The notes below the pieces were generated by a model. The model was not told the origin of the DNA and did not search any database. It was given only the letters and a program-made list of their open reading frames with translations. Of a stretch of DNA of 64,000 bases, positions 1-2,580 are shown piece by piece; the first letter of the stretch is position 1; each line of letters starts with the position of its first letter. Source of the DNA: Saccostrea echinata (Eukaryota); the NCBI RefSeq assembly GCF_033153115.1, contig NW_026889774.1, positions 19,282,001 to 19,346,000 on the forward strand, given 5' to 3'. Both the position numbers and the translations under genes were made by a program.

Positions 1-2580
1 AACATGCCCTCACAGGGTTACCATGATCAGGGACCCCCTCCCCCAGGTGCCATGTTCCAGGGATCAGTCCTCATGGTGTATGGATTGAATCCAGACATGA
101 TTAATTGTGACAAGCTTTTCAATTTGTTTTGTCTGTATGGAAACATTGTCAGGGTATGTGAACTTCAATGTGCAGGTATTTCTTAGTGAGGGGGCAATGC
201 AATATGAGTCATCAACACTTATTGCATATTTTTGTACCATTTTAAGACTAATCAGAAATTTGGAGAATTTTCTATATTCTGCTGTTCGTTAAACTGTGTA
301 ACTTGGACTAGAGAGATGTTTTGGGATATTAAACATTATTTAAAAGTCTAATTTATAATGCATGTACTATCTGTAATTTGAATATGTCTGAGATTGATTG
401 TAACTCGCAGTTAGTATTGAACAAGTACATGTGTGTTAACATACACAGATGCATTACCAAGTTCTTCTGCTGGGTATGAGGTGAAATAAATGATGCTAAA
501 TATTTTTTGTAGGTGAAGTTTCTGAAAAGCAAAGAGGGTTCAGCAATGGTACAGCTAGGAGACTCTCTGGCAGTGGAAAGATGTATGCAGAATTTGAACT
601 ACATCACATTGTTTGGAAACAAGATCACTCTTGGGTAAGAGAATAATTAGAAATACTGTATCTTCTAATTTTTAAATTTTCTCTGAATAAAATCCCCCCC
701 CCCCCCCAAAAAAAAATGTATAAAATAATTGAGAGCGTATACTGGCTTTCAATACTGAAACCATAGTTTAAATGGGATGTCTTAAAGATCCGTTAAATAA
801 AATTTTGGTTTAACCTTGTTTTTGTAAAAAAACAGACACTCCAAGCAAGCTTTTCTACAAGATGTCATGAATCCGTATGAATTATCAGATGGCACACCAT
901 CATTTAAAGACTTCATGGGAAGCAGGAACAACAGATTCGCAAATCCAGAGGCAGCCAGCAAAAATCATATCCTCTTCATAACAGATATTTAAATTCAATC
1001 AATTGCAACTAAGATATTTTTTTTAACTATTGAATTTTTACATTGGTGGCAAATGGTTAATCATTACAAAAATTGTGTTTGTAATATAAACTTTATTTAA
1101 TATTCTATGAAAGACATTTTTAAATGTTTGCTGTACTTTAAAGCTACTTACATGTATTTCTTTTGGCTGCATTCTACTTTGAAGGACTTTTAATTAAATG
1201 AGATTATACCAGAAAGGTCATACATGAGTGGTCTGTTTCCTTAACAACTGTAAGGATCATGCCACCATCCAAAGTTCTGCATTACTTTAACGTACCCCCA
1301 AACATTTCAGAGGAACAACTTGCAGAGGTAAAAACAAACATCTGAGTAAATGCAATAATAAGAGTGCCATAGGCCAAAATGCTCACCTGGGTTTTACCGA
1401 GTGATGAACAAATTTTTGAATAGACTCTCATCTGGAATATCTTTGATTTCAGGTCTTTGAAAAAGCAGGGGCAACAAAGCCTTCAAAGATAAAACAGTTT
1501 GCATCAAAAAGTATGTTGAATTCTTTTAAAATCAGATTTATGTATTTTTAATTCAGTTAAAGATGCTGTATAGACATACATGTATGTTATGTGTTTAAAG
1601 AACACATTTTCTTTTATTCATATGTTATATTTCTTTTATATATAATCCACACCATAAATAAGTAGCTATCGAATTACTTGTGCTTGCAGTTATTTTTGAC
1701 AAGGATTTTTTTTTTGAGTCAAGACTGTCTCTTGAAATTGTGCATAAAATTCTTGCAATATGATTTTTAATATTTTGATGTACAAGAAGAAGCATTACAT
1801 GTATTACATGTGTCTGATTTCTTGTTAAACACACTGTCTTAAATTATTTGATCATATCAGTAACATGCCATAATTTTGAGCCCTATGGTCCTTAGGTGAG
1901 AGAAGTTCGTCTGGACTGCTCCAGTTCGAGTCCAAATCAGAGGCCTTGGAGGCACTCATCCTGGCCAATCATTCATCCATTCCTAATCCAGGTCAGTTCT
2001 TCTGGACAGAAATATTATAAATGATCTTTTTATACCCCCCACAAACGAAGTTGGGGGTATATTGGAATCAGCATGTCTGTTTGTCTGCCCATCTATCTGT
2101 CTGTCTCTCTGTAGACTTGATTTTGTCCAGACATGTTGTAGGAGACTACATCAGATTTGTCTAAAAATTTGTACCCTCATTCACCATATAAAGATGTTCA
2201 CCTTGTATTTACATCATGATTGGATAAGTTTTTTTTCATTTTACAGTTCTTTTTTTCATTTATATAAATTTAGTTTATTTTGAACAGTTCTAGTTTTCAT
2301 TTTTGAATCAAAGAGATTATAAGGAATAATCGTAAGAATAATCATAACTAGATGATAATTTGCATGTGAATGTATCATCTTGAGACCTTGTTAAATGACC
2401 TTTGACATAAAGTGTATTAATAATTTCTAGTCAGTGAAAAGTACTTGTTTCTACTGCTAAAACAGGTAATAATTAGATATTTATATAGTGTATCCACTAA
2501 AACATATTTTCCTTTTTCTAGCTGGGAAAAGCCCGTATGTGATGAAGCTGTGTTTTTCTGGAGGTCCTATCAAGGATTGA
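1..2580 (+). CDS. HNRNPL: Heterogeneous nuclear ribonucleoprotein L, 3' part (RRM3-RRM4); exons <1-153, 513-634, 836-966, 1254-1327, 1453-1510, 1896-1991, 2522-2580
   Basis: Spliced translation gives VLMVYGL..NCDKLFNLFCLYGNIVRVKFLKSKEGSAMVQ, SFKDFMGSRNNRF, SKNRIMPPSKVLHYFN, SERSSSGLLQFESKSEALEAL and PYVMKLCFS, the hnRNP L/LL signature. Exon phases are consistent and TGA falls at 2578-2580. Confidence 0.93.
967..1253 (+). other. U12-type (minor spliceosome) intron with AT-AA termini
   Basis: 5' end ATATCCTCT at 967; branch site TTCCTTAAC at 1237-1245; only the AA at 1252-1253 keeps the frame. Confidence 0.8.
2027..2230 (+). mobile_element. Fragment of a non-autonomous Helitron/Helentron-type (HINE) element
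   Basis: TTTTTATACCCCC..GGGGGTATA hairpin followed by a degenerate (TCTG)n microsatellite, the usual HINE 5' architecture. Confidence 0.45.

What the first reader, a model, noticed from the sequence alone, without database searches (positions are those of the whole stretch)
967..1253. Minor-spliceosome intron with rare AT-AA ends in hnRNP L
Seen: a U12 donor ATATCCTCT and a U12 branch TTCCTTAAC. Of three nearby acceptors, AC (1248) gives CTG TAA, AG (1254) frameshifts, and only AA (1253) restores the conserved SKNRI. Known: AT-AA is a rare U12 subclass that gene finders miss. Inference: slippage among the three acceptors could tune levels of this splicing regulator through NMD.
Basis: partly seen in the sequence, partly recalled or inferred. 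Interest (0 to 1): 0.7.

Follow-up and report, generated by a model that had tools for sequence, protein, structure and literature searches.

The report
Second minor intron in oyster hnRNP-L
An oyster gene for the splicing regulator hnRNP L has a real 287-base intron with rare AT-AA ends that is cut out exactly as proposed; it is an old intron shared with worms and clams but missing from the vertebrate and arthropod copies seen, and it most likely works as an ordinary, slightly slow minor intron rather than as a three-way splice switch.

Summary
Observation confirmed. Four of four transcript assemblies join 966 to 1254 (AT..AA, no positional ambiguity), two unspliced contigs carry the same AA, and the genome encodes U11 and U12. 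The genome's deposited protein already has this junction. The intron is not the known human HNRNPL/HNRNPLL minor intron: that one (RRM2, AT-AC) sits upstream in this same gene, and the scan noted it before in another genome. So this gene has two minor introns. The linker position recurs in other lophotrochozoans as AT-AC, GT-AG and AT-AA and is absent from the vertebrate and arthropod copies seen. Acceptor slippage as a regulator is unsupported: no alternative junction appeared (contigs can hide rare ones), the AC lies only 3 nt past the branch motif (orthologues 8-12), and the AG follows automatically from the Arg codon. Likelier NMD routes: about 10% retention in two runs, and a stop-containing exon upstream of the window, behind a CA-rich cluster, in the intron matching human poison exon 6A. 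Verdict: new member of a known kind, modest interest.

The parts
1..153 (+). hnRNP L coding exon (3' part; start of RRM3)
   Evidence: joint 152/512 GT..AG in 4 of 4 runs
513..634 (+). hnRNP L coding exon, RRM3
   Evidence: P0001
836..966 (+). exon upstream of the minor intron, ends ...ASKN + first base of the Arg codon (phase 1)
967..1253 (+). U12-type intron, 287 nt, AT-AA
   Evidence: joint 966/1254 AT..AA in 4 of 4 runs; unspliced contigs in 2 of 4
967..975 (+). U12 donor ATATCCTCT (one departure from consensus at +8)
   Evidence: weaker duplex with the genome's U11 5' end than the RRM2 donor, -3.4 vs -7.3 kcal/mol
990..992 (+). in-frame TAA reached if the intron is retained
   Evidence: translation
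1237..1245 (+). U12 branch motif TTCCTTAAC
   Evidence: complementary to the genome's U12 snRNA
1247..1248 (+). AC decoy, 3 nt past the branch motif; no use seen
1252..1253 (+). AA acceptor in use, 8 nt past the branch motif
1253..1254 (+). AG one base downstream (G is the first exon base); no use seen
1254..1327 (+). exon downstream of the minor intron (start of RRM4)
1453..1510 (+). coding exon, RRM4
1896..1991 (+). coding exon, RRM4
2522..2795 (+). last exon; stop TGA at 2578-2580, then 3' UTR

Best explanation
967-1253 is a real AT-AA intron of an oyster hnRNP L gene, removed at the AA, most likely by the minor spliceosome as a constitutive intron. Inferred mechanism: U11 pairs with ATATCCTCT and U12 with TTCCTTAAC; the acceptor is then set by distance from the branch, which excludes the AC (too close), and by the first-last base preference of AT-starting introns, which disfavours AG, leaving AA. 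It is the gene's second minor intron and an old one (shown in bivalves, an annelid and other lophotrochozoan-like loci), whose last bases have drifted between AC, AA and, with a GT start, AG. Any effect on protein level is likely through slow removal (retention gives a stop at 990-992), not through acceptor choice; the gene's main NMD feedback is likely the separate stop-containing exon upstream of the window.
For: Shown: junction in 4 of 4 runs, no direct repeat; U11 and U12 genes over Rfam cut-off in G000 and U12 complementary to the branch motif; no polypyrimidine tract at the 3' end; second minor intron L002:1377-2477, AT-AC, spliced in 4 of 4 runs, at the codon of the human HNRNPL (AT-AC) and HNRNPLL (AT-AT) intron. 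Same-codon U12-like donor in 40 of 120 metagenome matches; 3' end resolved in 19 of these 40: 14 AT-AC (one clade, partly redundant), 3 GT-AG, 2 AT-AA. Read-through of the donor in gene models of Magallana gigas, Pinctada, Mytilus edulis and Paralvinella. Branch-to-end spacing 8-12 nt in 14 of 14; human PIGB AT-AA also 8 nt. Literature: AT-AG disfavoured and distance important (PMC3584512); AT-AN introns have higher basal retention (PMC8280824). Unspliced contigs only for this intron among six in 1-2800, depth 6.33 vs 56.7 (X1) and 3.63 vs 33.2 (X2).
Against: Dependence on the minor spliceosome was not tested directly. 8 nt is shorter than the 11-13 nt optimum quoted in PMC3584512 and the AG would be one base nearer to it. 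Retention was not seen in X3 or X5 (X3 is the same sample as X1; X5 has the highest depth), and contig depth is a poor measure of level. No raw reads were available, so low-level use of the AG cannot be excluded; U12 acceptor choice is known to be error-prone.
Confidence: 0.8

Rival explanations
1. One reading: the minor spliceosome slips among AC (1248), AA (1253) and AG (1254), and the two unproductive products are degraded by NMD, tuning hnRNP L level.
For: Both alternative products would be NMD substrates by position. NMD substrates are depleted and contigs drop rare variants, so their absence is weak. U12 3' splice-site choice is error-prone (PMC3584512); human PRMT1 has an NMD-linked AT-AA intron (PMC3564746).
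Against: No such joint in 4 runs; junction plus unspliced depth roughly equals downstream depth (63 vs 60.6 in X1; 36.8 vs 39.8 in X2). AC 3 nt past the branch motif vs 8-12 in 14 of 14 orthologues. AG is a by-product of the Arg codon; AC decoy not present in L051, L108.
Confidence: 0.08
2. The intron is a selected rate-limiting step: weak donor, short spacing and AA end make its retention respond to minor-spliceosome (CENATAC-type) activity, so two minor introns couple hnRNP L level to that machinery.
For: About 10% unspliced contigs in 2 of 4 runs and for no other intron in 1-2800; +8 donor mismatch; human HNRNPL and HNRNPLL minor introns are retained on CENATAC loss; position kept across lophotrochozoans.
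Against: The intron is absent in vertebrates, arthropods and some lophotrochozoan-like ORFs (P0064, P0138, P0146), and its ends switch freely, which fits neutral persistence as argued in PMC10639083. Retention not seen in X3, X5. The RRM2 intron showed no unspliced contig, but depth there was 14-22 in three runs, too low for a fair comparison.
Confidence: 0.3
3. Artefact: base-call error (AA for AC), reverse-transcriptase template switch, a hidden GT-AG junction, or A-to-I editing that makes the ends canonical.
For: AT-AA is rare (1.117% of conserved animal minor introns, PMC10639083 supplement); edited AA and AT ends are known (PMC4176328).
Against: Unspliced contigs of two samples read the same letters at both ends; no direct repeat at the joint ('both'=0); all four runs use this joint; AT-AA recurs at the same codon in L051 and L108.
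Confidence: 0.02

Closest known systems
AT-AA (A-type, AT-AN) U12-type introns, e.g. human PIGB, MSH3, THOC2, ABHD18 (de Wolf et al. 2021, PMC8280824 Dataset; Alioto 2007, PMC1635337; Larue and Roy 2023, PMC10639083)
   Same: ATATCCT donor, TTCCTTAAC branch, AA end 8 nt past the branch motif as in PIGB, no pyrimidine tract, raised retention. AT-AA is the commonest non-canonical minor end in animals.
   Different: Only the host gene and position; AA is directly followed by G, giving an adjacent AG.
Minor intron of human HNRNPL (AT-AC) and HNRNPLL (AT-AT) (PMC1874599 Table 1; PMC8280824 Dataset; PMC4176328 supplement)
   Same: Same gene family, A-type minor intron, non-canonical end already known in the family (AT-AT).
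   Different: Different position: the human intron is at AMVE/F in RRM2 and its true orthologue is L002:1377-2477 in this gene. The window's intron lies at SKN/R between RRM3 and RRM4, where vertebrate genomic ORFs run through without an intron and the human A-type list has no second HNRNPL row.
Human HNRNPL poison exon 6A autoregulation (Rossbach et al. 2009, not held; seen through PMC7547044 and PMC6547761)
   Same: A stop-containing exon two exons after the RRM2 minor intron, with a CA-rich stretch upstream (L002:4712-4813).
   Different: 102 nt with an in-frame stop against 70 nt in human; outside the window; no sequence homology tested; binding and feedback untested.
Minor-intron AS-NMD switches: SRSF10, PRMT1, CENATAC (PMC8329584; PMC3564746)
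   Same: Splicing regulator or RNA-processing gene in which a minor intron can yield an unproductive mRNA.
   Different: Those use competing U2 and U12 sites; no competing U2 site or alternative joint was seen here.

Membership tests
U12-type (minor) spliceosomal intron | 5' splice site RTATCCTTT | tested here: met
   ATATCCTCT at 967, one mismatch at +8
U12-type (minor) spliceosomal intron | Branch sequence TTCCTTRAY close to the 3' end | tested here: met
   TTCCTTAAC 1237-1245, 8 nt before the end; complementary to the genome's U12
U12-type (minor) spliceosomal intron | No polypyrimidine tract between branch and acceptor | tested here: met
   AACTGTAA follows the branch motif
U12-type (minor) spliceosomal intron | Excised precisely from mRNA | tested here: met
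   966/1254 in 4 of 4 contig sets; RNA status of the runs is the tool's guess, but all six introns are skipped
U12-type (minor) spliceosomal intron | Minor snRNAs present in the organism | tested here: met
   U12 129.5 bits, U11 98.4 bits; U4atac and U6atac not searched
U12-type (minor) spliceosomal intron | Splicing depends on the minor spliceosome | not testable with these tools
   needs knockdown or lariat mapping
AT-AA subtype | First and last dinucleotides AT and AA, genomic, not an error | tested here: met
   joint ends and unspliced contigs
Orthologue of the human HNRNPL/HNRNPLL minor intron | Same codon and phase as the human intron | tested here: not met
   human intron at AMVE/F matches L002:1377-2477, not 967-1253
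Regulated AS-NMD switch by alternative acceptors | Alternative junctions present in RNA | tested here: inconclusive
   none listed in 4 runs, but contigs drop rare variants
Regulated AS-NMD switch by alternative acceptors | Competing sites conserved across species | tested here: not met
   AC decoy absent in L051, L108; AG is codon-determined; close oyster relatives not available
Regulated AS-NMD switch by alternative acceptors | Products rise on NMD inhibition | not testable with these tools
   no such data

The most novel reading that the evidence does not exclude
The linker intron is a minor intron gained de novo in the stem of lophotrochozoans (such gains are almost unknown), which has since cycled through AT-AC, AT-AA and GT-AG, and in the oyster it works together with the ancient RRM2 minor intron and a human-like exon-6A poison exon to put hnRNP L under both self-feedback and minor-spliceosome control.
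Probability: 0.15. Interest if true: 0.65.

Novelty: new member of a known kind. Interest (0 to 1): 0.33.

Why it matters
As it stands it is a well-supported example of a known rare class, and a practical warning: gene models of several molluscs and an annelid run through this donor and lose or garble RRM4. The position is a small natural experiment, one intron seen with three kinds of ends, useful for studying how minor introns switch subtype. If it proved absent from cnidarians, priapulids, echinoderms and amphioxus it would be a rare case of minor-intron gain. The side finding, a stop-containing exon behind a CA-rich cluster in the intron that holds human exon 6A, would, if confirmed, suggest that hnRNP L self-regulation is shared between molluscs and vertebrates.

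Tried and rejected
No listed run is on record as RNA and none is held as raw reads, so junction counts could not be made. Searches of genome contigs found nothing; viral contigs gave 2 chance matches. The 68-column tree resolves little: it places the own protein with oysters, L117 with Paralvinella, L021 with Dreissena/Mercenaria, L051+L108 near Lineus without firm support, and leaves the AT-AC clade unplaced. Look-ups of 20 read-through or divergent ORFs gave names for 2 (both Paralvinella), so no cnidarian, echinoderm or other outgroup state was obtained. No blastn similarity above chance between the oyster's sixth-intron region and other loci; no protein among 296 held contains the stop-exon peptide. 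Other RTATCCTY and CCTTAAC matches in the window did not pair up with exons on inspection. Papers not held: Dietrich 2005, Dietrich 2001, Rossbach 2009, Levine and Durbin 2001. PMC7726792 had nothing on this. Literature searches with no hit: AT-AA + U12 + hnRNP L; minor intron + hnRNP L + oyster/mollusc; HNRNPL + minor intron + lophotrochozoa. intronIC could not be run, and Larue and Roy's per-intron database, which covers Crassostrea gigas and C. virginica, could not be seen and may already list the orthologous intron.

Full report
Observation. The first 2.8 kb of the window hold the 3' half of an hnRNP L gene (match to solved hnRNP L RRM3-4 structures; homologues). The protein clusters at 90% with Ostrea edulis hnRNP L and groups with oysters in a tree, so the organism is an oyster. 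ATATCCTCT begins at 967, TTCCTTAAC lies at 1237-1245, and AC, AA and AG end at 1248, 1253 and 1254. Joining 966 to 1254 gives ASKN-R-IMPPSKVLHYFN; 1249 gives an immediate stop; 1255 a frameshift ending in the next exon. The chance of donor and branch motif falling so is about 7e-9.

RNA evidence. Six runs were listed, none on record as RNA and all held as contigs. Four were laid on 1-2800 (X1, X2, X3, X5; at most 3 samples, 2 studies). All four skip 967-1253 with ends AT..AA and no shared letters at the joint; the other five introns are GT..AG. No joint to 1249 or 1255 was listed; contigs drop rare variants, so this is weak evidence. X1 and X2 also hold unspliced contigs over 937-1283 (depth 6.33 against 56.7 for the joint; 3.63 against 33.2), with no change at either end of the intron, which excludes a base-call error and gives no sign of editing. 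No other intron in the stretch had a full unspliced contig. X3 and X5 showed none for this intron. The deposited protein for this contig (P0001) already has the junction. U12 and U11 genes are in the genome; the branch motif is complementary to U12, and the donor pairs less well with U11 than the gene's other minor donor.

Not the human intron. Human HNRNPL and HNRNPLL are listed as minor-intron genes (PMC1874599, passage seen). The supplement of PMC8280824 (rows seen; file 13 not searched) gives one A-type intron each, AT-AC and AT-AT, with donor context at AMVE/F in RRM2; PMC4176328's supplement (rows seen) confirms AT-AT for HNRNPLL. The oyster gene has that intron too, upstream of the window: L002:1377-2477, 1101 nt, AT-AC, spliced in 4 of 4 runs. 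The window's intron is therefore a second minor intron, at the Arg codon between RRM3 and RRM4.

Distribution. 40 of 120 have a U12-like donor exactly after the first base of that Arg codon. The next exon was in the DNA held for 19 of the 40: 14 AT-AC (one clade, partly redundant), 3 GT-AG (L012; L117, identical in protein to Paralvinella palmiformis; L021, nearest Dreissena and Mercenaria) and 2 AT-AA (L051, 99 nt; L108, 233 nt; a related pair, not oysters). Gene models of Magallana gigas, Pinctada imbricata, Mytilus edulis and a second Paralvinella gene read KN-H-I-L, the translation of an unspliced AT donor. Genomic vertebrate ORFs and two fish-like loci run through the site without an intron, as do arthropod-like loci, several of which have a GT intron seven codons further on, and three lophotrochozoan-like ORFs. 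No cnidarian, echinoderm or other outgroup state was obtained. Since loss of minor introns far exceeds gain (PMC2831892, passages; PMC10639083, passages and section 30), an ancestral intron lost in vertebrates and arthropods is likelier than a gain, but gain is not excluded.

How the acceptor is chosen (inferred). In 14 of 14 non-redundant orthologous introns the end lies 8-12 nt past the branch motif; human PIGB (AT-AA) has 8. The AC here lies at 3, the AA at 8, the AG at 9. Distance matters for U12 acceptors and AT-AG is disfavoured (PMC3584512, passages; the primary papers were not held). Against this, 8 nt is below the 11-13 nt optimum quoted there, and U12 acceptor choice is error-prone, so some AG use is plausible. 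But the AG needs no selective explanation: the exon starts with the G of an Arg codon, so every AA-ending version has it (L051, L108), and those two lack an AC decoy. AT-AA itself is a known class: ten rows in nine human genes in one table, 1.117% of conserved animal minor introns and the commonest non-canonical end; also PMC1635337 (passage).

Routes to NMD. All three unproductive products (AC, AG, retention) would stop more than 100 nt before the last junction. Only retention was seen, which fits the higher basal retention of AT-AN introns (PMC8280824, abstract and passages). A further route turned up outside the window: in X1 and X2 the exon ending at L002:2884 continues into L002:4712, while X4 and X5 continue into the normal exon at L002:6164 (16 loose ends not shown). 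L002:4712-4813 is a 102-nt AG/GT-bounded exon with an in-frame TAA, and X2's loose end is exactly 102 nt. The 200-nt window richest in ACA/CAC of 1869 overlapping windows over 94 kb lies about 400-600 nt upstream of it. Human hnRNP L binds the intron upstream of its poison exon 6A (PMC7547044, passage; PMC6547761, passages); that hnRNP L prefers CA-rich RNA and that 6A lies two exons after the RRM2 minor intron is partly recalled. The evidence is two runs of one study and a statistic chosen after seeing the sequence; feedback is untested.

Verdict. The intron is real and is a U12-type AT-AA intron by every sequence test; minor-spliceosome dependence is inferred. It is a new member of a known class at a position that three literature searches did not find described, though an intron database covering two Crassostrea species could not be seen and supplements of PMC3564746 (part 1 of 3 and passages read) were unreadable. 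PMC8329584 (passages) lists an HNRNPLL twintron without a known role. The three-acceptor switch is unlikely (about 8%). Interest 0.33.

Noticed in passing
L002:4712-4813 (G000:C25, about 5.2 kb upstream of the window), CA-rich stretch L002:4085-4320: 102-nt exon with an in-frame stop, joined to the preceding exon in 2 of 4 runs, behind the most ACA/CAC-rich 200 nt of 94 kb: candidate counterpart of human HNRNPL poison exon 6A.
   Followed up: partly
L002:1377-2477: AT-AC minor intron in RRM2, orthologous to the human HNRNPL/HNRNPLL intron, spliced in 4 of 4 runs.
   Followed up: yes
L002:6210-6775: Minisatellite of about 13 units of 35-44 bp, each repeating the end of an hnRNP L exon with its GTAAGT donor: a tandem row of potential 5' splice sites. 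Use not tested.
   Followed up: no
L127:250-1914 (G000:C60): Intronless hnRNP L paralogue with an intact frame of about 550 aa, 91% identical to a Crassostrea virginica protein: likely a retained retrogene that escapes both minor introns and the stop exon.
   Followed up: partly
L029, L038, L056 (resolved); L041, L044, L081, L086, L088; L068, L069: Variant donors at the same codon: ATATTCTTT in introns that end AC with a TCTTTAAC branch, and ATAACCTTT in two loci whose 3' end was not held.
   Followed up: no
L051: This locus lacks the RRM2 minor intron but keeps the linker one (AT-AA, 99 nt); its intron after the exon-6 equivalent also has a CA-rich patch.
   Followed up: partly
L010, L031, L060, L066, L067, L084, L110, L113: Arthropod-like loci without the minor intron carry a GT intron seven codons downstream (after PPxK).
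   Followed up: no
window about 27100-34000, - strand: Multi-exon myosin heavy chain gene (label from recalled motifs in the translations).
   Followed up: no
window 55721-56173 (-), 57095-57472 (+), 63446-63763 (+): C1q-like domain exons, two of them near-identical copies about 6.35 kb apart (label recalled).
   Followed up: no
window 60019-60795 (+) and 12688-13932 (-): A 259-aa frame resembling the end of a LINE reverse transcriptase (recalled) and a 415-aa frame made of a tandem repeat.
   Followed up: no
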